32,884 nucleotides of DNA from a virus (IMGVR_UViG_3300044712_000851:1-32884); one strand, 5' to 3'; numbered from the stretch's first letter, positions 1,425 to 15,044 are shown. Numbers and translations are program-made. Notes: generated from the sequence alone by a model not told the origin.

Positions 1425-2597
1425 ATGAATATACGCTTTATAGATCTTTTTGCAGGAATAGGAGGGTTCAGGTATGGACTTGAAAAGACAAAAGGCTATG
1501 AATGTGTCTATTCCAATGAATGGGATAAATATGCAACACAAATCTACGATAGCCATTTCAAGCACCCAAGCACACTCGACGAAAATGGTGGAGATGAGTC
1601 CGACTCTTCCAGAAGCGATGGGGAAAGGTGGGGGTCACGTACCGATGGTGTTGACACAAGAGACATTCGAACAGTCCCCAGCTCGGAAATCCCCGACTTC
1701 GACCTCCTTGTTGGAGGCTTCCCTTGCCAAGCGTTTAGCATCGCTGGAAAGCGTGCAGGATTTAATGACACCAGAGGGACGCTCTTTTTTGAAATCGCTA
1801 GGATTCTCCGAGACAAAAGACCCAGATATTTTATTCTTGAAAACGTCAAAGGTCTACTTAGTCATGACGAAGGAAAAACTCTCCAGACAATCTTTGGGGT
1901 TCTCTCCGACTTGGGGTATGAGTTTCAATGGCAAGTTCTTAACAGCAAAAATTTCGGAGTCCCCCAGAATAGGGAAAGAATCTTCATTGTCGGAAATCTT
2001 AGAGGAGAACGTAGACCAAAAGTATTTCCTGTCTCAGGAACAAGTGAAGAAGATAACCGCAACACAGGGGAAGATTTGTCTTACGCCTTAGATGCAAACT
2101 ATCACAAAGGAACAAACACTTTAAGCAAGGGGAGAAGACAGCTTATCCAAAAGATAGGCGGATCTCAGGGAATGAGGGTTTACGACCCAGAAGGTCTCTC
2201 TACTACAATTGCAGGTTTGGCTGGAGGATGGGGAGCAAAGACTGGTCTTTATGCCATGCAATGGCGTAGGACTGAAAAAGGAAAAGCCGAAAGACGAAAG
2301 AATCAGGCTAACGGACGAGACTACACACCTTTTTCAGACGGAGCTAGGGAAGTTGTTCCTAATCCAGATAAAAAGGTTATTGGAACAATTACCTCTCAGG
2401 CGGTAGCAAAAGACTCATTGGTGGGGAACGAAACCCAAATTCGAAGGCTTACGCCTGTGGAGTGTGAAAGATTGCAAGGATTTCCTGATGGGTGGACTGA
2501 AGGGATCAGTGATACACAGCGTTATAAGTGTTTGGGTAACGCGGTTACTACGAATGTTGTTGAGTGGATTGGAAGACAATTAATTAAAAGCATATGA
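1425..2597 (+). CDS. dcm: DNA (cytosine-5)-methyltransferase
   Basis: DLFAGIGG (I), GGFPCQAFS (IV), ENV (VI), QNRERIFIVG (VIII), RRLTPVECERLQGFPD (IX), YKCLGNAV (X). Confidence 0.95.
   Translation: MNIRFIDLFAGIGGFRYGLEKTKGYECVYSNEWDKYATQIYDSHFKHPSTLDENGGDESDSSRSDGERWGSRTDGVDTRDIRTVPSSEIPDFDLLVGGFPCQAFSIAGKRAGFNDTRGTLFFEIARILRDKRPRYFILENVKGLLSHDEGKTLQTIFGVLSDLGYEFQWQVLNSKNFGVPQNRERIFIVGNLRGERRPKVFPVSGTSEEDNRNTGEDLSYALDANYHKGTNTLSKGRRQLIQKIGGSQGMRVYDPEGLSTTIAGLAGGWGAKTGLYAMQWRRTEKGKAERRKNQANGRDYTPFSDGAREVVPNPDKKVIGTITSQAVAKDSLVGNETQIRRLTPVECERLQGFPDGWTEGISDTQRYKCLGNAVTTNVVEWIGRQLIKSI
1645..2091 (+). CDS. Alternative-frame ORF nested in the methyltransferase (candidate second subunit)
   Basis: +1 frame is open 1474-2091 and encodes SLSEILEENVDQKYFLS, resembling the post-motif-VIII segment of C5 MTases; start uncertain (several in-frame ATGs from 1474; 1645 preferred). 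Confidence 0.55.
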   Translation: MVLTQETFEQSPARKSPTSTSLLEASLAKRLASLESVQDLMTPEGRSFLKSLGFSETKDPDILFLKTSKVYLVMTKEKLSRQSLGFSPTWGMSFNGKFLTAKISESPRIGKESSLSEILEENVDQKYFLSQEQVKKITATQGKICLTP

Positions 2598-2704
2598 GTA
2601 TTTCTATTTGTCCTTACTGCGGAAAAATGATTGATGAGGATTATGATGTTGAACACTACGAGGAGTGTAGGCTGGAGCATGAAGAAAATGACGAGGGGAA
2701 CTAG
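2594..2704 (+). CDS. 36-aa putative zinc-binding peptide
   Basis: MSISICPYCGKMIDEDYDVEHYEECRLEHEENDEGN; ATGA overlap with the dcm stop; below the ORF-track cutoff. Confidence 0.6.
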   Translation: MSISICPYCGKMIDEDYDVEHYEECRLEHEENDEGN

Positions 2705-3338
2705 ACATCTTTTTGGAGACGAAGCTTTAGACTTTCAAAAGGTTACTGAGAGTTTGATTAAAACCGTCACCACTTGGGGATATAAACCTTTCTATCCCTC
2801 AACACTTGCGGATCAGAAGCTCTTTGTAGACAAAGCTGGAGACGAAGTCTTAAACCAAATGTACACCTTTAAGGACAAAGGAGATAGAGACTTATGCCTT
2901 ATTCCCGAAGTAACTGCCGTTGTTCAGAATTTGTATAATGAACACTGGTCTAAAACCCTACCAAAGCCGATTAAGCTCTATTATCTTACTAAATGTTATC
3001 GATATGAACGCCCTCAGGAAGGTAGATATAGAGAGTTCTGGCAGTTCGGAATTGAACTACTTGGCGGAGAGGAAGATATCCTTGTCAGGGATGTTCTTGT
3101 AAATGCTCTTTATAACGTCAATCCACAAGCTTTTGAAAACAATATATATAAATTTAATGGCAAAGTTAAACGGGGTCTGAACTATTATGTCGAAGATGGG
3201 TTTGAAGTAGAAGTTCCCTCTCTTGGTGCACAAAAACAAATTGCTGGAGGCGGAAGATACAAAGAGGGTATCGGATGGGCTATTGGGGTTGATCGGTTAT
3301 TATTGGCTCTAAAAAACCCACTTGACAAAGCGGAATAA
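2679..3338 (+). CDS. hisS: Histidyl-tRNA synthetase-like protein, catalytic core only
   Basis: RGTRHL, MYTFKDKGDRDLCLIPEVT, motif 2 YRYERPQEGRYREFWQFGIE, RGLNYY, GGGRY, motif 3 GWAIGVDRL; about 219 aa; start 2679 or 2688. Confidence 0.85.
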   Translation: MKKMTRGTRHLFGDEALDFQKVTESLIKTVTTWGYKPFYPSTLADQKLFVDKAGDEVLNQMYTFKDKGDRDLCLIPEVTAVVQNLYNEHWSKTLPKPIKLYYLTKCYRYERPQEGRYREFWQFGIELLGGEEDILVRDVLVNALYNVNPQAFENNIYKFNGKVKRGLNYYVEDGFEVEVPSLGAQKQIAGGGRYKEGIGWAIGVDRLLLALKNPLDKAE

Positions 3339-3350
3339 ACGTTTAATAAT
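3322..3350 (+). promoter_or_regulatory. Sigma70-type promoter (leaderless for the 3356 ORF)
   Basis: TTGACA(3322-3327)-17 nt-AATAAT(3345-3350), then 5 nt, then ATG 3356. Confidence 0.6.
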
Positions 3351-3355
3351 AAATC

Positions 3356-3517
3356 ATGCCAAAATACAAACATTCTTCTTTTGTAATCGATTTCTTTCTC
3401 TTTTTGGGACTCAGTTTCTCCATAGGTCAGGCATTTATATTTTATCCTCGTTTAGGTCTTGGTCTTGTCTTGGTAACAATTGCATTTTTGATTTGGAGGT
3501 CGGAACAATTATTCTAA
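3356..3517 (+). CDS. 53-aa membrane protein
   Basis: MPKYKHSSFVIDFFLFLGLSFSIGQAFIFYPRLGLGLVLVTIAFLIWRSEQLF; two hydrophobic stretches; ends 1 nt before the next ATG. Confidence 0.65.
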   Translation: MPKYKHSSFVIDFFLFLGLSFSIGQAFIFYPRLGLGLVLVTIAFLIWRSEQLF

Positions 3518-3518
3518 T

Positions 3519-3905
3519 ATGAAATTTAAAATTGGAGACAGAGTCAAGGTTGTGGGTAATTGCTGTAACCACAATTATAGAATTGGGAGTGTTAAAACAA
3601 TTAACAAGCTTTATCGCAGTGGTTCAATCCAAGGGTATCATTTGGGCGGAGACAATTATGTTGAAGACGAAGATATTGTCTTGGCTGGAAAGGAGATAAA
3701 AATGAAAGACACAAAATGGGGAGTTAAATATGAGATGGGTTCTGATCCAGTAGAATTCTTTAAGACTCGTAAAAAAGCTGAAGAAAGAATATTTGAATTG
3801 ATGGACGACAAAGAAGTTGTAAAATCAAGTATATACTTATTCGAAGTTGCAAAGATTTATAAAGCCAAAAGACCAATAGCTTTTATATTGGAGGAGGAAA
3901 AATAA
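3519..3905 (+). CDS. Hypothetical protein, N-terminal SH3/KOW-like FKIGDRVKV motif
   Basis: 128-aa ORF; motif common at the start of small phage proteins. Confidence 0.7.
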   Translation: MKFKIGDRVKVVGNCCNHNYRIGSVKTINKLYRSGSIQGYHLGGDNYVEDEDIVLAGKEIKMKDTKWGVKYEMGSDPVEFFKTRKKAEERIFELMDDKEVVKSSIYLFEVAKIYKAKRPIAFILEEEK

Positions 3906-3906
3906 C

Positions 3907-4179
3907 ATGAGTCACACTTATAAATTTGATATTAGAATAAAACTGTCTCATTTTGACGGTATCAAAAAAATCTTTGATAGCGTTAATAAGTCTATGGAAG
4001 AATTTACTGGGGAGAAGCATAAACTAGATGCAACCAGTTCTCTGGGGACTTTTAGTGTAACATCCGAAAAAGAACTTAGTTATAAGGATCGGATCACTAT
4101 CGCCAATCTAGCTGAGAAAGATTTTCAGGAAAAAACAAAGAATATGGATTTAACAGTAGAGGAGGTGCAAGATGAGTAG
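3907..4179 (+). CDS. Hypothetical protein
   Basis: 90-aa ORF in a tightly packed run. Confidence 0.7.
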   Translation: MSHTYKFDIRIKLSHFDGIKKIFDSVNKSMEEFTGEKHKLDATSSLGTFSVTSEKELSYKDRITIANLAEKDFQEKTKNMDLTVEEVQDE

Positions 4180-4390
4180 AGAAATTTGGTCAGGGGAAGA
4201 TGAACTAGGTTTTCAGATCGGAGATATGCATGGTGAGTGGCAAACCGAGGAAAGTAAAGAAGCCAGTGGCGGTGGTCAGGGTAAAGGAAAAAAGCCTGTA
4301 ACAAAGATTCAGGGTACTCAACATCGACAAAAAGTAGAAAAACAAGTTGTCAAAGTTAGGATTCAACAAAATCCGCCCAATAAACACTAA
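4172..4390 (+). CDS. Hypothetical protein
   Basis: 72-aa ORF, GGAGG upstream, TAATG overlap with the next gene. Confidence 0.6.
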   Translation: MSREIWSGEDELGFQIGDMHGEWQTEESKEASGGGQGKGKKPVTKIQGTQHRQKVEKQVVKVRIQQNPPNKH

Positions 4391-4701
4391 TGGAAGACAT
4401 AGAAGTTAAAAATGCAAAGATTGACAGTACAACGCTTGGTTTTGAAGACCACGGAATCTTTACTGCCTTTTTACATCTCAACTATGGCGGATCGGCACAG
4501 GGTTTTGGTGGCTATTCATATCAAGGTCTAATGTCTTACAAGTTTTTAGATGGAGTTTTAAAGACTGTTGGAGTAGATAATTGGGAAGATTTGCCTGGAA
4601 AATACATTAGGGTTAAGTGTACGAGAACGAAAGTAGTTGAAATCGGGAACATTATAGAGGATAAATGGTTTAATCCAGAGGAGGGTGAAGATGTTATCTA
4701 G
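4390..4701 (+). CDS. Hypothetical phage protein
   Basis: 103-aa ORF coupled to its neighbours. Confidence 0.75.
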   Translation: MEDIEVKNAKIDSTTLGFEDHGIFTAFLHLNYGGSAQGFGGYSYQGLMSYKFLDGVLKTVGVDNWEDLPGKYIRVKCTRTKVVEIGNIIEDKWFNPEEGEDVI

Positions 4702-4885
4702 TTTGGCTTGGTGGCATTGGGTACTTATTGTTTATTTTACTATTAGCCTTTTGGTAATTTTTGCTGTAAGAGCTGAAAGCAAAAAAGATAAAAAGGAATA
4801 CAGGATGAGTTTAGGCGAGTGGTTATTTTATCTACTTGCAATTCCTTTAATAGTTATTATAACAATCTTGGGAGGAGATAAATAA
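4691..4885 (+). CDS. Small membrane protein (2 predicted TM segments)
   Basis: Hydrophobic WWHWVLIVYFTISLLVIFAV and WLFYLLAIPLIVIITILG; GGAGG 4679-4683 favours ATG 4691. Confidence 0.7.
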   Translation: MLSSLAWWHWVLIVYFTISLLVIFAVRAESKKDKKEYRMSLGEWLFYLLAIPLIVIITILGGDK

Positions 4886-5037
4886 TGAAAATTATACAAG
4901 TAATATCTGAACACAAAAAGAACAAGGCTAACCAACAAAAGCCTGGTAGATTTCACACTAAACGTGGATGGGGTGAGGTAACTGTGGAGGAAAATGGTCA
5001 AATTGTTACCAGACACAGACCTCTGGAACAAACATGA
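4885..5037 (+). CDS. 50-aa hypothetical protein
   Basis: MKIIQVISEHKKNKANQQKPGRFHTKRGWGEVTVEENGQIVTRHRPLEQT; fills the gap exactly (TAATG and ATGA overlaps). Confidence 0.6.
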   Translation: MKIIQVISEHKKNKANQQKPGRFHTKRGWGEVTVEENGQIVTRHRPLEQT

Positions 5038-5834
5038 AGACAATTGTAGGAATAAGACCCACAGGAAAATTACATATTGGACACTACTTTAGTGTTATTA
5101 AACCAGCATTAGAAGATGATAATGTCGATGTTTTGGTAGCGACTTACCACATGTCCCCTCCAAGCAGGAAAGCGACAAATGAAGTGTGTGTTGAATTAAA
5201 CAGTTTAGGAATACTACCTAAAATGCAAGAGGTGGATGTAGATTTATATTTTAAATTATTATCTGCTTCTAGGGTGGGAGAGCTTGAGAGAATGATTCAG
5301 TACAAGTCTGTAAAAGTCAAAACTCCTCATCTCCTCGTCTACCCAGTTTTGATGGCACACGATTTGGTTGGATATGACAGGGTAATTGTTGGCGAAGACC
5401 AAAAGCAACACGTCGAATATGCCAACACTCTTTTTAAGCGTCTTGGTATGCCTACCATAAAGGGAGACTTTAGGGGTGGAAGAATAATGAGTCTTACTGA
5501 TCCGACTAAAAAGATGAGCAAGTCCGAGCCAAAGGGTTGTTTGTTTTTAGACGACAACTTTGAAGAAAAACTTAAAGGGGCAGTCACCACCCCAGCAGGA
5601 GTTAAAAACCTTAGTTACATAGCCAGTCAGTTTGGAATGAAGTGGCTTCCAAATGACAACAAGGCTTGTAAAGAACATTTGGCAACTGTATTGGAAAAGA
5701 AGTTTGGTAAAATTGGAGAAGAAAACTGTAATATATATTCTGACAACCTATCAACAGTAGTGTCACCAAAGAAGTTTCAAGAGATACTCAAGTTTATAGG
5801 AGTTCCAAAAAGCCAATGGGAAAAATTTACGTAA
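5034..5834 (+). CDS. trpS: Compact tryptophanyl-tRNA synthetase
   Basis: GIRPTGKLHIGHY (HIGH), GELERMIQYK, YPVLMAHD, GEDQKQH, RIMSLTDPTKKMSKS (KMSKS); 266 aa. Confidence 0.88.
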   Translation: MKTIVGIRPTGKLHIGHYFSVIKPALEDDNVDVLVATYHMSPPSRKATNEVCVELNSLGILPKMQEVDVDLYFKLLSASRVGELERMIQYKSVKVKTPHLLVYPVLMAHDLVGYDRVIVGEDQKQHVEYANTLFKRLGMPTIKGDFRGGRIMSLTDPTKKMSKSEPKGCLFLDDNFEEKLKGAVTTPAGVKNLSYIASQFGMKWLPNDNKACKEHLATVLEKKFGKIGEENCNIYSDNLSTVVSPKKFQEILKFIGVPKSQWEKFT

Positions 5835-6355
5835 TAACAGACACACATTTTAATCACCAAAAGATCATTGAATATGGTCGTCCTCCAGATTTTGAGGACA
5901 GAATATTCGAAGGTCTTAAGATACTTAAACCCGATGATATGCTAATACATCTTGGGGACTTTTGTATTGGCAAAGACGAAGAGTGTCATAAGAAGTTTAT
6001 GGATGCAGTCCCCTGTAAGAAGATTCTGGTTTTAGGGAATCACGACAAGAAATCTTACAACTGGTATATGGAGCATGGCTGGGATTTTGTTTGTGAAATG
6101 TTTTACCTTAAAAAGTTTGGTGAGCATATTCTCTTCTCCCACACACCTAAATCTAAAAGAAGTATTAATTTCTGGAGCATGAATGTACACGGACATTTAC
6201 ACGACAATCTACACAGGTTTCCCGAATACATAAAAATACTCACACCTAAGCACTATCTACTGTCTATGGAAAAAACAGACTACAAACCAGTAGAGCTTGA
6301 GAGCTTTATAAAAAAGAAAAGTATAGTAGAAACAGACCTTCTCAGCACATTATAG
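5816..6355 (+). CDS. Calcineurin-like metallophosphoesterase
   Basis: DTHFNH, HLGDF, LGNHD, FSHTP, NVHGHLH. Confidence 0.85.
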   Translation: MGKIYVITDTHFNHQKIIEYGRPPDFEDRIFEGLKILKPDDMLIHLGDFCIGKDEECHKKFMDAVPCKKILVLGNHDKKSYNWYMEHGWDFVCEMFYLKKFGEHILFSHTPKSKRSINFWSMNVHGHLHDNLHRFPEYIKILTPKHYLLSMEKTDYKPVELESFIKKKSIVETDLLSTL

Positions 6356-6362
6356 GGTTTAT

Positions 6363-6411
6363 TTGACTTCTTGATATTTAAAGATATACACTGATCTAGT
6401 TTGTACTAGAT
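6363..6411 (+). promoter_or_regulatory. Promoter plus operator-like inverted repeat
   Basis: TTGACT(6363-6368)-18 nt-TACACT(6387-6392); ATCTAGT-N4-ACTAGAT at 6394-6411 abuts ATG 6412. Confidence 0.55.
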
Positions 6412-6756
6412 ATGAATATTCCTGCCCAGGATTTTAAAGTGAAAGTTGGTGAGTTTTGGATAGATGTTATCTACAAAGAGACATCTAAGGTTTCTGGTCG
6501 TGCAAACTTCGGTCACTATAACCATATCAATCTTCGAATCGTCATCTCCAGAAAGTATAATAAAAATCAGCAACAGCTAGAGAACACCCTTATCCACGAG
6601 ATCTTTCATGCCATTTGGGAAATATTCGGTGTTCATGATGTGTCTGGGTATGCTTCAGATGAGAGTGCCGAGGAAACATTTGTTTCGAGATTAACTTCAG
6701 GTTGGCAAAGCTTTATGGTTGATAATCCCCAACTCTTCAATGAAGAAAAAAAATAA
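6412..6756 (+). CDS. HExxH zinc metallopeptidase-like protein (SprT/ImmA-like)
   Basis: ENTLIHEIFHAIW followed by downstream EE. Confidence 0.7.
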   Translation: MNIPAQDFKVKVGEFWIDVIYKETSKVSGRANFGHYNHINLRIVISRKYNKNQQQLENTLIHEIFHAIWEIFGVHDVSGYASDESAEETFVSRLTSGWQSFMVDNPQLFNEEKK

Positions 6757-7108
6757 GAGAGACTGGATAAGTCACTGGCTTAAAAAGGCTTATGGTCTCA
6801 CAAAAGAAGAAAAGAAAAAACTTTGGGAATACCAAAAAGGAAGATGTGCTATTTGTGGTATTAAACTGAGATTAGATTCTGATTGTAATATTGATCACGA
6901 CCACGGTAAAAATGATTTTAGGGCTAATGGTGTGAAAGGGGTTAGTTATAAAGATAGGCGTGATGCTGTCAATGGTATCGTTTGTTGGCAATGCAATACT
7001 CTGATGGGAAAGTTGGCAAGGCTAGATCCAGATCCACTCATTGCAGCCCAGAAGATTTCACAATACCTGCTTCATCCTCCTGCCCAAGAGGTTTTGACAA
7101 TGGGGTAG
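6740..7108 (+). CDS. Endonuclease VII-like nuclease
   Basis: YQKGRCAICG, IDHDH, GIVCWQCNTLMG. Confidence 0.8.
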   Translation: MKKKNKRDWISHWLKKAYGLTKEEKKKLWEYQKGRCAICGIKLRLDSDCNIDHDHGKNDFRANGVKGVSYKDRRDAVNGIVCWQCNTLMGKLARLDPDPLIAAQKISQYLLHPPAQEVLTMG

Positions 7109-7943: not shown

Positions 7944-8429
7944 ATGAGAAAAGAAATATACATCGCCATGGCTGTTGGAGGAGCCCTCTTGTCTACAGCA
8001 GCATTTACTCAAAAACAAAGAGCTGCTATTATTGAAAGAGATGAGGGTAAATGCCAAGCTACTGTCCCCCATCAACACAGCACTGCTAAGTACCCGCTCG
8101 AAGTAGACCACGTTATTCCTCAGCGTTATGCAGAAAAAATCGGACTCCCAGATGTTGATATTCCAGAGAACGCTTTAACCAAATGTCGCAATGCTCATGA
8201 TCTCAAACACAGGGATAGAATAGCCGCTAGGGAGAAGTGGGCGGAGAGTCATAATGGGTCTTTTGAGTCCATGTTTAAAGAAAGAAATGAAAAACTTGAA
8301 AATGGTGAAGTTTATTGGGATACTACATATGATAGGCAAGATATGGTTCAAGCATTAAAAAGGACTCAAATTGCCAAAAAGAAAGGGTGGATATTTCCAG
8401 CCAAGAGGAAAACAAAGAATGAAGAATAA
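7944..8429 (+). CDS. HNH endonuclease-like protein
   Basis: IIERDEGKCQ, EVDHVIP, ENALTKCRNAHDLKH. Confidence 0.65.
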   Translation: MRKEIYIAMAVGGALLSTAAFTQKQRAAIIERDEGKCQATVPHQHSTAKYPLEVDHVIPQRYAEKIGLPDVDIPENALTKCRNAHDLKHRDRIAAREKWAESHNGSFESMFKERNEKLENGEVYWDTTYDRQDMVQALKRTQIAKKKGWIFPAKRKTKNEE

Positions 8430-9183
8430 AGTTTTTGCTATAGCTGACATTCATGGGTGTTATAAGACACTTATGGCTTTAATGGAAAAATTACCAATAG
8501 ACTTAGAAAATGATCAGGTTGTTTTTGTTGGTGACTATACAGATCGCGGACCAAGATCCAAACAGGTTATTACCCAACTAATGAAATGGGAGAAAGAACA
8601 CCCTACTTGGAAGTTTTTATATGGCAATCACGAAGATCTACTTCTCGATGCTTTAGTTTACAAGGGTAGGCAATACCACATGTATGATCTTTGGTGGGGA
8701 CAGGGCGGTAAAGAAACTGCTATGAGCTATGTTCCAAAAGGTCGCACAGCTTACGAAAAAGCTATCACTCCAGTTAAAGACTCCATTCCATACACCCATC
8801 TTAAATGGCTTATGGATCGTCCTTACTATGCCGAGTTTGGAGATTACTTTTTTGTTCACGGGGCGGTTATTCCTGGAACATCTCTGGAAGATTTGAAAGA
8901 AAAGCTTGACTCTCCTCTTCCAAACGATGAAAAACAATCTGTCATATGGGGACGAGACCTTTTTATATTTTCCAAGTATAACTGGGGAAAGAAAATAGTA
9001 TTTGGTCATACAGCCGACTACGACGGTAGATACCATGCCCCTCCAGGTGGAGATCCATTTCAACCCATCGTCAGGAAGAATAAAATAGGAATTGACTGTG
9101 CTGTTTGTCCTCCAGCTTGTAACAAACTATGTGCTGTTGAACTGCCTTCTGAAACTTTTTACTTTCAGGACTACGTGGACTGA
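8419..9183 (+). CDS. Ser/Thr protein phosphatase (lambda PP/PrpA-like metallophosphoesterase)
   Basis: DIHGC, GDYTDRGP, GNHE, FVHG, VFGHT, IGIDC; ATG 8419 preferred over the TTG at 8371. Confidence 0.85.
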   Translation: MKNKVFAIADIHGCYKTLMALMEKLPIDLENDQVVFVGDYTDRGPRSKQVITQLMKWEKEHPTWKFLYGNHEDLLLDALVYKGRQYHMYDLWWGQGGKETAMSYVPKGRTAYEKAITPVKDSIPYTHLKWLMDRPYYAEFGDYFFVHGAVIPGTSLEDLKEKLDSPLPNDEKQSVIWGRDLFIFSKYNWGKKIVFGHTADYDGRYHAPPGGDPFQPIVRKNKIGIDCAVCPPACNKLCAVELPSETFYFQDYVD

Positions 9184-13162: not shown

Positions 13163-13429
13163 ATGGCTGCCATAGTACCACTAAATAATTACGTCGTTGT
13201 TGTTGAAGCTATTACAGACCCGATTAAAAAGGGTAGGTTTTATTCGACTGATGAAGTACATGAAATCAAAAGAGGATCTGTTGTGGGTGACAAATCTCAG
13301 GGAAAAGAGTCCCTTTTGGATAAAGAAGTTTTCTACAAGACAGAGGATGCGATTAGTTTGAAGTTTAATGATGAAAATTTAGTCATAATCGATAAGTCTA
13401 AATTATTAGCTTTTACATATAATGCCTAA
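13163..13429 (+). CDS. groES: Divergent GroES-like co-chaperonin
   Basis: IVPLNNYVVV, RGSVVG, EVFY, LVIIDKSKLLA; directly upstream of groEL. Confidence 0.75.
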   Translation: MAAIVPLNNYVVVVEAITDPIKKGRFYSTDEVHEIKRGSVVGDKSQGKESLLDKEVFYKTEDAISLKFNDENLVIIDKSKLLAFTYNA

Positions 13430-15044
13430 AGTAAAGAAAAAGATTTTATTTAACAAAGATGCCAGACAAGCTCTGATTAGAGGAGTCTCTGTTTTGGCTA
13501 AAGCAGTTACGACTACGCTTGGTCCACGCGGAAGGAACGTTGGTTTGGGGAGAAAATGGAATGCTCCTAAGGTTGTTCACGACGGTGTCTCTGTTGCCAA
13601 AGAAGTAGAAGTCGATGATCCATTTGAACAGATGGGTGTGGACATGGTTAGAGAAGCAGCAGAAAAAACCAATACTCAAGCTGGTGATGGAACAACCACT
13701 TCAATTCTATTAGCCGAACAAATAGCCTTAGCTGGAGACAAAGAAGTTGAAACACATGGAGCAAACCCAATGGCTATTCAACGAGGTCTTCAAACCGCTG
13801 GTGAGATAGTCTCCAAAAAACTTCTAGAGATGACTTCTTCAATTGATAGTTCAGAACAAATTACCCAAGTCGCCACTGTCTCTTCAGCTGACCCCGAGGT
13901 TGGTAAAAAGATTGCTGAAGCAGTTGAACGTGTCGGTAAAAAAGGAGTCATTTATGTAGAAGAGGGTAAGGGATTGGATACTTCGATAGAATACAAAGAA
14001 GGTATGGAATTTGACCGAGGTTATGCTTCACCTTACTTTGTCACAGATAATGAACGAGAGGAAACTGAAGTTTCTAATCCATACATCTTTATGACTGCCG
14101 AAAGGATAGTTACCAACAAGCAAATTATGCCTATCCTTAATGCAATTGGAAACATTGAAAAGTCAGATGGTTTTAATGTAGTTATTATTGCTGACAAAGT
14201 AGATTATGAAGCTTTGGGTACTTTATTTGTCAATCACTCAAAAGGAGTCTTGGGTGCTATCCCTATAGAAGCTCCAGGATTCGGAGATAAGCGCGAGGAA
14301 ATACTTGAAGACATCGCGGTTCTTACTGGTGGTCAAGTCTTTTCACCTAAAAAAGGAATGTCTTTTGATCAAATAGACCCGTCAATCTTTGGTAGGGCTG
14401 ATAAAGTTTGGTCTGGCAAGAGTTCCTCAAAAATAATTGGAGGAAAGGGAGACACAGAAGTTATTTCTCTTCGTGTTAAACAACTTGAGAATCAGTTGTC
14501 AAAAGAAACCTCTGAATTTGAAAGAGAAAAAATTGAAGAAAGAATTGCGAGACTTGTGGGAAGTGTTGCGATAATCAATGTTGGGGCTGCAACAGAGACA
14601 GAACTTCACGACAGGAAAGAAAGAATGGTTGATGCTGTTGCTGCTACTAAGGCAGCTGTAGCCGAGGGTATTTTGCCTGGAGGTGGAATAGCCTTACTTC
14701 GTGCGAGAGAAGAACTTAAAAAGACCACCGTTGAAAATCCAGAGGAGCAAATAGGAATCAACATCTTATATGAAGTATTAGGAAGACCAGTTGAGAGACT
14801 TCTTGAACTTGCCAATATTAAAGACTCAAAGACAGCCCTAAAGGAAATAATGAGTTCTAAAGATCCTAACTATGGATGCAATGTTTCTACTGGTGAAATG
14901 GGAGATCTTATAAAATTGGGAATTATCGATCCGACAAAAGTTATCCGCACCGCTCTTCAAAATGCCATATCAGTTGCTGGAATTGTCATTACCACAGAGG
15001 TTTTGATCGCTGTTACGGATATTGTGGAAGGAGGCGAGTCTTAA
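13422..15044 (+). CDS. groEL: Chaperonin GroEL
   Basis: TLGPRGRNV, AGDGTTT, EGMEFDRGYASPYF, APGFGDKR, EGILPGGG, GIIDPTKVIRTALQNA. Confidence 0.97.
   Translation: MPKVKKKILFNKDARQALIRGVSVLAKAVTTTLGPRGRNVGLGRKWNAPKVVHDGVSVAKEVEVDDPFEQMGVDMVREAAEKTNTQAGDGTTTSILLAEQIALAGDKEVETHGANPMAIQRGLQTAGEIVSKKLLEMTSSIDSSEQITQVATVSSADPEVGKKIAEAVERVGKKGVIYVEEGKGLDTSIEYKEGMEFDRGYASPYFVTDNEREETEVSNPYIFMTAERIVTNKQIMPILNAIGNIEKSDGFNVVIIADKVDYEALGTLFVNHSKGVLGAIPIEAPGFGDKREEILEDIAVLTGGQVFSPKKGMSFDQIDPSIFGRADKVWSGKSSSKIIGGKGDTEVISLRVKQLENQLSKETSEFEREKIEERIARLVGSVAIINVGAATETELHDRKERMVDAVAATKAAVAEGILPGGGIALLRAREELKKTTVENPEEQIGINILYEVLGRPVERLLELANIKDSKTALKEIMSSKDPNYGCNVSTGEMGDLIKLGIIDPTKVIRTALQNAISVAGIVITTEVLIAVTDIVEGGES

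What the first reader, a model, noticed from the sequence alone, without database searches (positions are those of the whole stretch)
2679..5834. Two streamlined synthetases (one class I, one class II) in one phage early region with no tRNA nearby: candidate novel system
Seen: HisRS-core and compact TrpRS genes lie about 1.7 kb apart among small early genes, flanked by phosphatases. Both have intact active-site motifs and trimmed RNA-binding or connecting parts. I found no tRNA gene in the window. Inference, as competing hypotheses: (a) maintaining His/Trp charging when host defences attack tRNAs or synthetases; (b) making aminoacyl-adenylates or Ap4A-type signals; (c) aminoacylating proteins, DNA or metabolites. 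His and Trp are both costly amino acids, which could matter in an auxotrophic host.
Basis: inference. Interest (0 to 1): 0.85.

Follow-up and report, generated by a model that had tools for sequence, protein, structure and literature searches.

The report
Two minimal phage tRNA synthetases
This uncultured soil phage carries a half-size histidyl-tRNA synthetase and a compact tryptophanyl-tRNA synthetase that most likely still charge tRNAs, but they are two independent accessory genes from widespread phage families, not one new two-gene system, and the same genome holds a full tRNA set including tRNA-His and tRNA-Trp.

Summary
Both genes are real. The first (2679/2688-3338) is a 216-219 aa HisRS catalytic core. 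It has no insertion domain and no anticodon-binding domain. The second (5034-5834) is a 266 aa compact bacterial-type TrpRS. The catalytic residues are intact and invariant across both families. Residues that read the tRNA are also kept: the HisRS motif-2 loop, and TrpRS Q152, E155, T225 and K274. Family dN/dS is 0.04-0.28.

The premise of "no tRNA nearby" holds only for the window. The complete 96.9 kb genome has 36 tRNA genes, including a canonical G-1:C73 tRNA-His and a tRNA-Trp.

The "one system" reading is not supported:
- Only 3 of 50 phage records with the mini-HisRS also have a mini-TrpRS.
- Only 5 of 33 mini-TrpRS loci have a mini-HisRS within 10 kb.
- The nearest relatives of each gene lack the other gene.

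The mini-HisRS forms a single clade. It is linked to co-oriented tRNA-His genes (odds ratio 5.6). The mini-TrpRS shows no such link to tRNA-Trp.

Best reading: two independent minimal synthetases that keep His- and Trp-tRNA charged during infection. Most family members contain none of their own amino acid, although this window's copies have two each.

This scan has already reported the mini-HisRS family several times on other DNA. The published papers I searched do not describe these minimal forms.

The parts
2679..3338 (+). Mini-HisRS: class II histidyl-tRNA synthetase catalytic core of 219 aa from the ATG at 2679, or 216 aa from the ATG at 2688, which matches the family's consensus start. 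It has motifs 1-3, HisA and HisB. It lacks the insertion domain, a loop equivalent to E. coli 290-300, and the anticodon-binding domain.
   Evidence: Pfam and NCBIfam hits. PDB alignment. Residue mapping to an enterobacterial HisRS. AF2 model with pLDDT 87; best Foldseek matches are HisRS 1kmn and 1adj, TMq 0.8. Family alignment A1. Tree. Homodimer prediction: score 0.86 against a best control of 0.09.
5034..5834 (+). Compact bacterial-type TrpRS of 266 aa with HIGH, GEDQ and KMSKS motifs and the Trp-pocket Met and Asp. CP1 and the C-terminal domain are shortened. It carries about 40 extra C-terminal residues that most relatives (220-235 aa) lack. Its last 19 nt overlap the next gene.
   Evidence: AF2 model pLDDT 92.7. 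VIA-align Z 23 to 5dk4 and 1i6k over model residues 1-238. Residue mapping read against PMC12135181.
4885..5037 (+). 50-aa ORF whose stop codon overlaps the TrpRS start codon (ATGA). This suggests translational coupling within a co-directional early gene block.
   Evidence: No Pfam hit.
3322..3350 (+). Promoter-like site (TTGACA, 17 nt, AATAAT; 11 of 12 matches) at the end of the HisRS gene. The two synthetase genes may therefore lie in different transcription units.
   Evidence: This is a consensus match only. The total number of such sites in the region is not above the shuffled expectation.
5816..6355 (+). Metallophosphoesterase gene that overlaps the TrpRS 3' end. Listed as context; no functional link is shown.
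   Evidence: Pfam Metallophos, 1.8e-8.
1425..2597 (+). C5 cytosine DNA methyltransferase, the upstream neighbour of the HisRS gene. Listed as context; it is not a phosphatase.
   Evidence: Pfam DNA_methylase, 1.4e-88.

Best explanation
The two genes are independent accessory translation genes. Each belongs to a large, conserved, mostly phage-borne family of minimal aminoacyl-tRNA synthetases.

The mini-HisRS is probably a homodimer of bare class II cores. It would make His-AMP and transfer histidine to tRNA-His by reading only the acceptor end: the extra G-1 paired with C73. This is why it can do without an anticodon-binding domain.

The compact TrpRS would charge tRNA-Trp in the usual bacterial way, reading G73 and part of the anticodon.

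Both genes sit in a block of small genes read as early. Together they would keep His-tRNA and Trp-tRNA charged for the phage's own 36-tRNA set and probably for host tRNAs.

Shown here: gene integrity, fold, conserved residues, purifying selection, family distribution and tRNA-His linkage. Inferred: catalytic activity, the tRNA substrates, the early timing of expression, and the benefit to the phage.
For: 1. Every HisRS residue I know to be needed for histidine activation is invariant in 46 family members that share about 55% identity. The equivalents are E83, T85, R113, Q127, E131, R259, Y263/Y264, the GGG-x-Y HisB motif and R311. The motif-2 loop ERPQxGRYRxF that contacts G-1 and C73 is also invariant.
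2. Standard HisRS depends mainly on G-1 and C73 and can histidylate minihelices (PMC3064791). E. coli fragments without the insertion domain still activate histidine (PMC3060492).
3. The phage tRNA-His encodes G-1 and C73.
4. In 51 distinct IMG/VR loci, 40 have tRNAs within 10 kb. tRNA-His is the commonest nearest tRNA and lies within 1.5 kb in 18 loci. All 34 tRNA-His genes are co-oriented with the synthetase. Enrichment is an odds ratio of 5.6 (Fisher p = 2e-6; the loci are not phylogenetically independent). In the cultured Sinorhizobium phage Phosso, a G-1:C73 tRNA-His lies 276 nt upstream of its 196-aa HisRS.
5. For the TrpRS, HIGH, GEDQ, KMSKS and the Met and Asp of the Trp pocket are invariant. 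The window's copy keeps Q152 and E155, which read G73, and T225 and K274, which read C35; K274 is invariant and Q152 nearly invariant in the family, while E155 and T225 are consensus residues only.
6. dN/dS is 0.04-0.28 (median 0.13) for HisRS pairs and 0.085 and 0.17 for TrpRS pairs.
7. 55 of 88 mini-HisRS contain no His and 27 of 47 mini-TrpRS contain no Trp. His is the most depleted of the 20 residues relative to full-length cores, at a ratio of 0.32. This fits enzymes that must be made when their own charged tRNA is scarce.
8. Other phage TrpRS enzymes have been shown by experiment to charge phage tRNA-Trp (PMC12636597).
9. Homodimer prediction: score 0.86, best of 3 controls 0.09; the runs agree in at least 88% of contacts; partner pLDDT at least 84. 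The mark was reached by 20 of 30 proteins solved as pairs of one chain and by 1 of 23 solved as single chains. The pass may rest on likeness to solved HisRS dimers.
Against: - No activity data exist for either minimal family.
- Both proteins score far below NCBIfam's equivalog cut-offs: 169.7 against 286.75 for hisS, and 77 against 176.75 for trpS.
- The mini-TrpRS shows no enrichment next to tRNA-Trp (odds ratio 1.2). Half of its loci have no tRNA within 10 kb.
- Two anticodon-loop residues differ from E. coli (D226 to T, S227 to P), and the stretch holding Y270 and G271 is missing.
- Members of the mini-HisRS clade occur in Paraburkholderia and Pseudomonas isolate genomes. In the one context examined (Paraburkholderia aspalathi) the neighbours look chromosomal rather than phage-like, and none of these loci has a tRNA-His gene within 6 kb, which leaves room for a non-translational role.
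- The window's own copies contain 2 His and 2 Trp, so the starvation-proof argument does not apply to them.
- The host is unknown, so the benefit cannot be assessed.
Confidence: 0.6

Rival explanations
1. One reading: the HisRS-like and TrpRS-like genes form one dedicated two-component system that acts jointly, for example against a tRNA-targeting or synthetase-targeting defence.
For: - Both genes lie in one co-directional early block 1.7 kb apart.
- A few other phages also have both genes close together. They are adjacent in L195. In L029 only a tRNA-Trp gene separates them. They are 3-4 kb apart in L191 and LR756502, and 10 kb apart in L028.
Against: - Only 3 of 50 mini-HisRS records carry a mini-TrpRS, and 7 carry a full-length TrpRS. 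Among the 23 records at least 90% complete, 1 has the mini form.
- 0 of 3 mini-TrpRS records searched whole carry a mini-HisRS, two of them at least 97% complete.
- 28 of 33 mini-TrpRS loci have no mini-HisRS within 10 kb.
- The nearest relatives of each window gene (65-72% identity) lack the other gene within 10 kb.
- The cases of co-occurrence are mostly translation-gene islands of huge phages, where many such genes cluster.
Confidence: 0.07
2. The proteins activate His and Trp but do not charge tRNA for translation. They would make aminoacyl-adenylates or Ap4A-type nucleotides, or aminoacylate another acceptor such as a carrier protein, a metabolite, or DNA through a transferase.
For: - The HisRS has lost its anticodon-binding domain.
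- Cellular clade members in Paraburkholderia and Pseudomonas lack tRNA-His neighbours; the one context examined (P. aspalathi) lies among oxidoreductase and regulator genes.
- One relative's contig has a Mom-family gene 3 kb from its mini-HisRS. Mom modifies DNA using charged tRNA (PMC13219725).
- Non-translational synthetase paralogs are well known (PMC9437257).
Against: - The residues that contact the tRNA acceptor end and anticodon are conserved. This would be unnecessary for a tRNA-independent role.
- The mini-HisRS is linked to co-oriented tRNA-His genes.
- The search found no carrier-protein gene, transferase or Mom gene in this genome. The Mom search also rang in none of the control genomes, so it is inconclusive.
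Confidence: 0.15
3. The proteins are regulatory or sequestering factors. They could be HisZ-like allosteric subunits, or decoys that bind uncharged tRNA, histidine or tryptophan to damp host starvation signalling.
For: - HisZ is a known HisRS paralog without an anticodon-binding domain (PMC9437257). HisZ models match weakly (89 bits).
Against: - HisZ has no adenylation activity (PMC9437257), whereas here every catalytic residue is invariant.
- The HisZ equivalog score of 89 is far below its cut-off of 271.65.
- The genome has no HisG gene, and the controls for that search worked.
- In the tree the minis form their own clade next to full-length HisRS.
Confidence: 0.05
4. The genes are decaying remnants of captured host synthetase genes and have no function.
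For: - Both are truncated compared with cellular enzymes and score below the equivalog cut-offs.
- The TrpRS has an unusual 40-residue tail that overlaps the next gene.
Against: - At least 120 clusters per family have the same short architecture.
- The mini-HisRS architecture has a single origin: 88 of 90 rows form one clade with support 100.
- Omega is 0.04-0.28.
- The structure models are confident.
Confidence: 0.03

Closest known systems
Bacterial histidyl-tRNA synthetase (class IIa; E. coli 1KMM/1KMN, T. thermophilus 1ADJ/4RDX), and its engineered fragments (the Ncat catalytic domain and HisRS urzymes, PMC3060492)
   Same: - Same fold: TMq about 0.8 to the catalytic domain.
- Motifs 1-3, HisA and HisB are present, and all histidine- and ATP-binding residues are kept.
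- The motif-2 loop is of the canonical G-1/C73-reading type.
- A predicted dimer forms through the N-terminus and motif 1.
- Like the engineered fragments, it lacks the anticodon-binding domain.
   Different: - It is a natural protein of about 205-219 aa.
- About 100 residues of the insertion domain are replaced by roughly 15 residues, and an 11-residue loop after HisB is deleted.
- The HisA loop is retained, which the urzymes lack.
- It forms its own clade and scores below the hisS equivalog cut-off.
- Its activity is untested.
Bacterial tryptophanyl-tRNA synthetase (E. coli 9LPC/5V0I, B. stearothermophilus 1I6K/5DK4)
   Same: - Rossmann core with HIGH, GEDQ and KMSKS motifs.
- An Asp reads the indole nitrogen.
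- Equivalents of Q152 and E155, which read the bacterial discriminator G73, are kept.
- Equivalents of T225 and K274, which read C35, are kept.
- Z is 20-23 over about 238 residues.
   Different: - It is 60-100 residues shorter than cellular enzymes. There are deletions in CP1, a 13-residue deletion after the anticodon loop, and loss of the distal C-terminal helices.
- D226 and S227 are replaced, and the Y270/G271 stretch is missing.
- This copy carries an extra tail of about 40 residues.
Synthetases of huge phages (Al-Shayeb et al. [quoted passage not shown]
   Same: - They are phage-encoded synthetases in tRNA-rich genomes, proposed or shown to charge phage tRNAs.
- LR756502, one of the huge-phage-sized records (642 kb), carries both mini forms inside a tRNA array.
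   Different: - Neither the parts of the huge-phage paper that I read, nor any paper found in my searches, describes a minimal architecture.
- AP1 TrpRS has E. coli-like residue numbering up to position 145, so it is not of the compact type.
- AP1 and HF2 serve UGA recoding. This phage uses the standard code and a CCA anticodon.
HisZ, the regulatory subunit of ATP phosphoribosyltransferase
   Same: It is a HisRS paralog without an anticodon-binding domain.
   Different: - HisZ has no adenylation activity and works with HisG.
- Here every catalytic residue is invariant, the genome has no HisG, and the HisZ models score far below their cut-off.
[quoted passage not shown]
   Same: - A G-1:C73 tRNA-His is paired with a HisRS that has a standard motif-2 loop, inside a host whose own system is said to lack G-1.
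- This may apply to Phosso on Sinorhizobium, and to huge phages that carry both tRNA-His types.
   Different: - In the phages the pair would be natural, not engineered.
- This window's phage has an unknown host and only the canonical tRNA-His.
- Orthogonality has not been tested.

Membership tests
Histidine--tRNA ligase (HisRS; TIGR00442, PF13393) | Class II motifs 1, 2 and 3, with the motif-2 and motif-3 arginines | tested here: met
   Alignments to T. thermophilus and enterobacterial HisRS. The R113 and R311 equivalents are invariant in 46 sequences.
Histidine--tRNA ligase (HisRS; TIGR00442, PF13393) | Histidine-specific HisA (RGLDYY) and HisB (GGGRYD) motifs, plus the E83, T85, Q127 and E131 equivalents | tested here: met
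   RGLNYY and GGGRY are present, and all named residues are invariant in the family.
Histidine--tRNA ligase (HisRS; TIGR00442, PF13393) | Helical insertion domain between motifs 2 and 3 | tested here: not met
   The equivalent of E. coli residues about 148-240 is absent and replaced by about 15 residues.
Histidine--tRNA ligase (HisRS; TIGR00442, PF13393) | C-terminal class IIa anticodon-binding domain | tested here: not met
   The protein ends about 12 residues after motif 3. The structure model has no such domain.
Histidine--tRNA ligase (HisRS; TIGR00442, PF13393) | Score above NCBIfam's equivalog cut-off | tested here: not met
   169.7 bits against a cut-off of 286.75.
Histidine--tRNA ligase (HisRS; TIGR00442, PF13393) | Histidylation of tRNA-His | not testable with these tools
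   Needs a biochemical assay. Supported only indirectly by linkage to tRNA-His genes.
Mini-HisRS clade (about 205-220 aa, mostly phage; not described in the papers I searched) | Groups with the short forms, apart from full-length HisRS, in a tree of shared core columns | tested here: met
   88 of 90 short rows form one side of a branch (SH-like support 100) with no full-length row inside. The two exceptions appear to be genes cut off at contig ends. The window's protein sits in an 18-row sub-clade with support 96. The tree was built with FastTree only.
HisZ (TIGR00443) | Score above the equivalog cut-off, no adenylation activity, and a HisG partner | tested here: not met
   89.3 bits against a cut-off of 271.65. 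The catalytic residues are intact. No HisG in the genome, with all 14 control genomes positive.
Bacterial tryptophan--tRNA ligase (TIGR00233, PF00579) | HIGH and KMSKS signatures, the GEDQ motif and the Trp-pocket Asp | tested here: met
   HIGH, KMSKS, GEDQKQH and LMAHD are present. H14, G16, H17, D110, D122, Q123, K160, M161 and S162 are invariant.
Bacterial tryptophan--tRNA ligase (TIGR00233, PF00579) | tRNA-reading residues of E. coli TrpRS: Q152 and E155 for G73; T225, D226, S227 and K274 for C35 and A36; Y270 and G271 for C34 | tested here: inconclusive
   The Q152, E155, T225 and K274 equivalents are kept. D226 becomes T and S227 becomes P. The Y270/G271 stretch is deleted or not alignable (read against PMC12135181).
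Bacterial tryptophan--tRNA ligase (TIGR00233, PF00579) | Score above NCBIfam's equivalog cut-off and a full-length architecture of about 330 aa | tested here: not met
   77 bits against a cut-off of 176.75. Relatives are 220-260 aa. The structural alignment covers chain residues 2-295 with about 57 of them missing.
   3 of 50, 0 of 3 and 5 of 33. The nearest relatives carry only one of the two genes within 10 kb.

The most novel reading that the evidence does not exclude
The mini-HisRS and a G-1:C73 tRNA-His may form a portable histidine-charging module that does not depend on the host and reads only the acceptor end. In phages of alphaproteobacteria whose own tRNA-His lacks G-1, the pair would be naturally orthogonal to the host. 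Candidates are Phosso on Sinorhizobium, and several 0.4-0.6 Mb phages that carry a G1:U72/A73 tRNA-His without G-1 next to a canonical tRNA-His and a mini-HisRS. More generally, both mini-synthetase families, which mostly lack their own amino acid, would be emergency enzymes that can still be translated when their own charged tRNA has run out.
Probability: 0.3. Interest if true: 0.75.

Novelty: new variant of a known kind. Interest (0 to 1): 0.5.

Why it matters
Phage-encoded synthetases are known, but their function is mostly assumed. These two families would be among the smallest natural synthetases for their amino acids.

A roughly 210-residue HisRS with neither tRNA-gripping appendage would show in nature what engineered Ncat and urzyme fragments show in the test tube: that acceptor-stem identity alone (G-1:C73) can support specific charging.

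This matters for three fields:
- Models of early synthetase evolution.
- Understanding how tRNA-rich phages make translation independent of the host.
- Finding compact, possibly orthogonal synthetase/tRNA pairs for genetic-code engineering.

For this particular finding, the practical result is a correction. It is two separate, recurrent accessory genes in a phage that has a full tRNA set, not a new two-gene system.

Tried and rejected
- Near-identical DNA in GenBank phages: none for 2000-7000. The portal-like protein has no INPHARED match, and GroEL is only about 44% identical to many unrelated phages and bacteria. The host could therefore not be inferred. The only habitat clue is a rhizosphere metagenome that may be the source sample.
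- No sequencing run that holds the stretch is on record as RNA, so expression could not be examined.
- PHROGs: no family for the HisRS, and one unnamed family for the TrpRS.
- Rfam found no T-box or other leader in the window. The promoter and terminator scans are at chance level overall.
- The Mom family search in this genome was empty, but the controls were also empty, so it is uninformative.
- A Phosso tRNA-His of the type without G-1 was not found by BLAST with a huge-phage copy. This is uninformative for tRNAs that have diverged.
- I tried to anchor the no-G-1 tRNA-His type to real alphaproteobacterial genomes or replicons by BLAST. Only weak hits to canonical tRNA-His genes came back. 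The assignment of those huge phages to hosts that lack G-1 therefore rests only on published acceptor-stem features (PMC3064791).
- I could not retrieve Wang et al. 2007 or Ardell and Andersson 2006.
- Other synthetase families in this genome: PF00152, PF00133 and PF00749 are absent, with working controls. PF00587 hits only the mini-HisRS. The ArgRS, CysRS, AlaRS, PheRS and MetRS families were not searched.
- The first dN/dS script timed out and was rerun.

Full report
WHAT IS THERE

The window is the first 32,884 bp of a complete 96,884-bp phage genome with a 127-nt direct terminal repeat. The + strand from 16 to about 9,200 is one co-directional block of mostly small genes.

Two ORFs in this block are synthetase-like.

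- ORF 2631/2679/2688-3338 matches Pfam tRNA-synt_His (6.5e-18) and tRNA-synt_2b (3.4e-13). It scores 169.7 bits on NCBIfam hisS, far below the cut-off of 286.75. The family consensus starts at the Met of 2688.
- ORF 5034-5834 matches tRNA-synt_1b (1.3e-24). It scores 77 bits on trpS against a cut-off of 176.75.

Eight small ORFs without Pfam hits lie between the two genes. The upstream neighbour is a C5 DNA methyltransferase. Two metallophosphoesterases (5816-6355 and 8371-9183) both lie downstream. The phrase "flanked by phosphatases" is therefore only half right.

THE HisRS-LIKE PROTEIN

I aligned it to T. thermophilus HisRS and to an enterobacterial HisRS with E. coli numbering.

- It keeps motif 1 and LIPEVT (E83, T85).
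- It keeps the whole motif-2 segment RYERPQEGRYREFWQ (R113, Q118, R121, R123, Q127, then E131).
- It keeps RGLNYY (R259, Y263/Y264), GGGRY (HisB) and motif 3 (R311).
- It lacks the insertion domain (about residues 148-240), a loop at 290-300, and the entire anticodon-binding domain.

All the named residues are invariant in 46 relatives that share about 55% identity. The AlphaFold model (pLDDT 87) matches HisRS catalytic domains with TMq about 0.8.

A homodimer is predicted through the N-terminus and motif 1. The score is 0.86 against a best of 3 controls of 0.09. The runs agree in at least 88% of contacts, and partner pLDDT is at least 84. The mark was reached by 20 of 30 proteins solved as pairs of one chain and by 1 of 23 solved as single chains. 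The pass may simply reflect likeness to solved HisRS dimers.

THE TrpRS-LIKE PROTEIN

It has HIGH, GEDQKQH and KMSKS motifs and the Met and Asp of the tryptophan pocket. The model (pLDDT 92.7) aligns over residues 1-238 with B. stearothermophilus TrpRS residues 2-295 (Z 23, rmsd 2.5) and with the E. coli TrpRS-tRNA complex (Z 20). It is therefore shortened, not stripped down.

I read the alignment against the E. coli complex paper (PMC12135181).

- Kept: the Q152 and E155 equivalents, which read G73, and the T225 and K274 equivalents, which read C35. K274 is invariant and Q152 nearly invariant in the family; E155 and T225 are consensus residues only.
- Changed: D226 and S227 are replaced, 13 residues after that loop are deleted, and the stretch holding Y270 and G271 is missing.
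- Most relatives are 220-235 aa. This copy has an extra tail of about 40 residues that overlaps the next gene.

THE "NO tRNA" PREMISE

ARAGORN and Rfam find nothing in the window. The whole genome, however, has 36 tRNA genes for all 20 amino acids plus a tmRNA call at 68.3-77.1 kb. These include tRNA-His(GTG) and tRNA-Trp(CCA).

The tRNA-His gene encodes G at position -1 and C73, the canonical bacterial identity set. The tRNA-Trp has A1:U72 and G73.

Searches for class IIb (D/K/N), class Ia and Glu/Gln synthetase families in the genome were negative, with working controls. Five other synthetase families were not searched.

BOTH GENES BELONG TO LARGE FAMILIES

The protein database returns at least 120 clusters of 195-220 aa proteins that are 50-69% identical to the HisRS. 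It returns at least 120 clusters of 220-270 aa proteins that are 44-73% identical to the TrpRS. Many sit on contigs of 40-670 kb.

In a FastTree of core columns, 88 of 90 short HisRS rows form one side of a branch (SH-like support 100), and no full-length HisRS lies inside. The two exceptions appear to be genes cut off at contig ends. The short architecture therefore arose once.

The clade also contains proteins from isolate genomes (Paraburkholderia aspalathi and P. caffeinilytica) and a Telmatospirillum MAG; short-form matches in Pseudomonas and a Burkholderiales MAG were not placed on the tree. The one context examined (P. aspalathi) looks chromosomal rather than phage-like, and no tRNA-His gene lies within 6 kb of any of them.

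Pairwise dN/dS is 0.04-0.28 (median 0.13, 38 pairs) for the HisRS family, and 0.085 and 0.17 for two TrpRS pairs. No relative is close enough to the window's own copies for an unsaturated estimate.

ARE THE TWO GENES A SYSTEM?

No.

- Of 50 IMG/VR records with the mini-HisRS, 3 have a mini-TrpRS and 7 have a full-length TrpRS. Among the 23 records at least 90% complete, 1 has the mini form.
- Three records with the mini-TrpRS, two of them at least 97% complete, have no mini-HisRS.
- Of 33 distinct mini-TrpRS loci, 5 have a mini-HisRS within 10 kb. The genes are adjacent in L195, separated by a tRNA-Trp gene in L029, and 3-10 kb apart in L191, L002 (LR756502) and L028.
- The closest relatives of each window gene carry only that gene within 10 kb. 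One is a 79-kb contig with a HisRS 65% identical. The others are 40.6-kb and 119-kb contigs with TrpRS 72% and 66% identical.

The occasional proximity is what one expects from translation-gene islands in large phages. A strong promoter-like site at 3322-3350 even suggests that the two genes lie in separate transcription units here, although such sites are not enriched overall.

LINK TO tRNAs

In 51 distinct mini-HisRS loci, 40 have tRNAs within 10 kb.

- tRNA-His is the most frequent nearest tRNA (10 loci) and lies within 1.5 kb in 18 loci.
- All 34 tRNA-His genes are co-oriented with the synthetase.
- tRNA-His makes up 11.9% of tRNAs within 1.5 kb, against 5.1% of all tRNAs in the loci (2.4% of those beyond 1.5 kb). 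The odds ratio is 5.6 (Fisher p = 2e-6). The loci are not phylogenetically independent.

In the cultured Sinorhizobium phage Phosso, a G-1:C73 tRNA-His lies 276 nt upstream of its 196-aa "histidyl-tRNA synthetase".

The mini-TrpRS shows no such link. The odds ratio is 1.2, and 17 of 33 loci have no tRNA within 10 kb. Many of those are contigs of about 30-56 kb. This enzyme would often have to act on host tRNA-Trp.

MECHANISM

Standard HisRS relies mainly on G-1 and C73 and can charge minihelices that lack the anticodon arm (PMC3064791). E. coli fragments without the insertion domain still activate histidine (PMC3060492). From my own recollection, not checked here, the E. coli Ncat domain still aminoacylates.

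A dimeric core that keeps the arginine cluster and the Q118 equivalent of the motif-2 loop can therefore plausibly charge any tRNA with G-1:C73, which in practice means only tRNA-His. The compact TrpRS keeps its readers of G73 and C35.

Phage TrpRS enzymes of normal size have been shown to charge phage tRNA-Trp (PMC12636597). Al-Shayeb et al. proposed that huge-phage synthetases charge phage tRNA variants (PMC7162821).

I therefore read both proteins as working synthetases (confidence 0.6). Their activity and substrates remain inferred.

TWO FURTHER OBSERVATIONS

55 of 88 mini-HisRS have no histidine: 0.34% His, against 1.1% in full-length cores. His is the most depleted of all 20 residues, at a ratio of 0.32. 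27 of 47 mini-TrpRS have no tryptophan: 0.24% Trp, against 1.5% in this phage's ORFs. The baseline for full-length TrpRS is a single sequence. This fits enzymes that are built to be made when their own charged tRNA is short. The window's copies have 2 His and 2 Trp, so they are exceptions.

Second, five huge-phage loci (L010, L013, L017, L022, L037) carry a tRNA-His with no G at -1, a G1:U72 pair, and A73 (U73 in L013). In four of them a canonical G-1:C73 tRNA-His also lies beside the mini-HisRS. These features match the tRNA-His type without G-1 described for Caulobacterales, Parvularculales, Rhizobiales and Rhodobacterales. The HisRS of that type charges E. coli tRNA-His more than 250-fold worse (PMC3064791), and the E. 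coli pair is orthogonal in Caulobacter (PMC3875453). Phosso's host belongs to the Rhizobiales. In such hosts the phage's canonical tRNA-His would need the phage enzyme. I could not confirm the hosts or the host tRNA directly.

For this window's phage the host is unknown. The only habitat clue is a rhizosphere metagenome that may be the source sample, and there is no cultured relative.

COMPARISON AND NOVELTY

The proteins work like HisRS and TrpRS but fail the architectural and score criteria for the equivalog families (see the membership table). HisZ is excluded: the catalytic residues are intact, there is no HisG, and the score is low.

I found no paper that describes minimal phage HisRS or TrpRS forms. 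A 2024 paper on natural minimal GlyRS (PMC11602164) shows that the field is interested in such forms.

This scan has already described the mini-HisRS family on several other genomes, including versions gated by a frameshift. The window's gene has no frameshift.

VERDICT

The "system" reading is not supported. The genes are new variants of a known kind.

Noticed in passing
L010:8339-9330, L013:8979-10620, L017:9275-10650, L022:10534-10770, L037:9351-9430 (IMG/VR huge phages): Five huge-phage loci carry a tRNA-His gene with no G at -1, a G1:U72 pair and A73 (U73 in L013). This is the type published for some alphaproteobacteria. In four of the loci it lies beside a canonical G-1:C73 tRNA-His and a mini-HisRS. 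This may be a natural orthogonal histidine-charging pair.
   Followed up: partly
Families A1 and A2 (relatives of window 2679-3338 and 5034-5834): 55 of 88 mini-HisRS proteins contain no histidine and 27 of 47 mini-TrpRS contain no tryptophan. His is the most depleted residue relative to full-length HisRS cores, while Trp is enriched about 3-fold in the mini-HisRS. The window's copies have two of each.
   Followed up: partly
L096:5893-6522 (Paraburkholderia aspalathi); also L143, L097, L113, L094: 209-aa members of the mini-HisRS clade, with catalytic motifs intact, occur in isolate genomes of Paraburkholderia and Pseudomonas. In the one context examined (L096) the neighbours are chromosomal-looking genes (F420-type oxidoreductase, pirin, LysR, FAD oxidase). 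No tRNA-His lies nearby in any of these loci.
   Followed up: partly
window 2594-2704: A 36-codon ORF with a CxxC...C pattern lies between the methyltransferase and the HisRS gene and overlaps the HisRS start codons.
   Followed up: no
window 3322-3350: A near-consensus sigma-70-like promoter (TTGACA, 17 nt, AATAAT) sits at the HisRS stop codon. The ATG at 3356 would then be leaderless, as another first-stage note on this window proposes for the early genes.
   Followed up: no
L028:20159-20602, L029:9104-9826, L085:10001-10729: The mini-TrpRS genes of these phage contigs contain in-frame stop codons (TAG in L028 and L029; the codon in L085 was not identified). These phages may read a stop codon as an amino acid.
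   Followed up: no
Contig holding P0007 (79 kb, Logan SRR31712300; no DNA was served): A related phage has a Mom-family gene about 3 kb downstream of its mini-HisRS. Mom modifies DNA adenine using charged tRNA. A ThiF-like E1 gene and an integrase gene are also nearby.
   Followed up: no
P0013 (358 aa, 66% identical to the window's HisRS): A mini-HisRS is fused to an HNH endonuclease domain (PF13392). This is probably a homing-endonuclease insertion or fusion.
   Followed up: no
window 13422-15044, and L092:12270-14131: The phage encodes a GroEL. The relative with the closest TrpRS (72% identity) has GroES and GroEL a similar distance downstream, so the two phages share this part of the early region.
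   Followed up: partly
window 5720-5834: The last 40 or so residues of the TrpRS are absent from most relatives and overlap the metallophosphoesterase gene by 19 nt. This may be a recent extension caused by loss of a stop codon.
   Followed up: no
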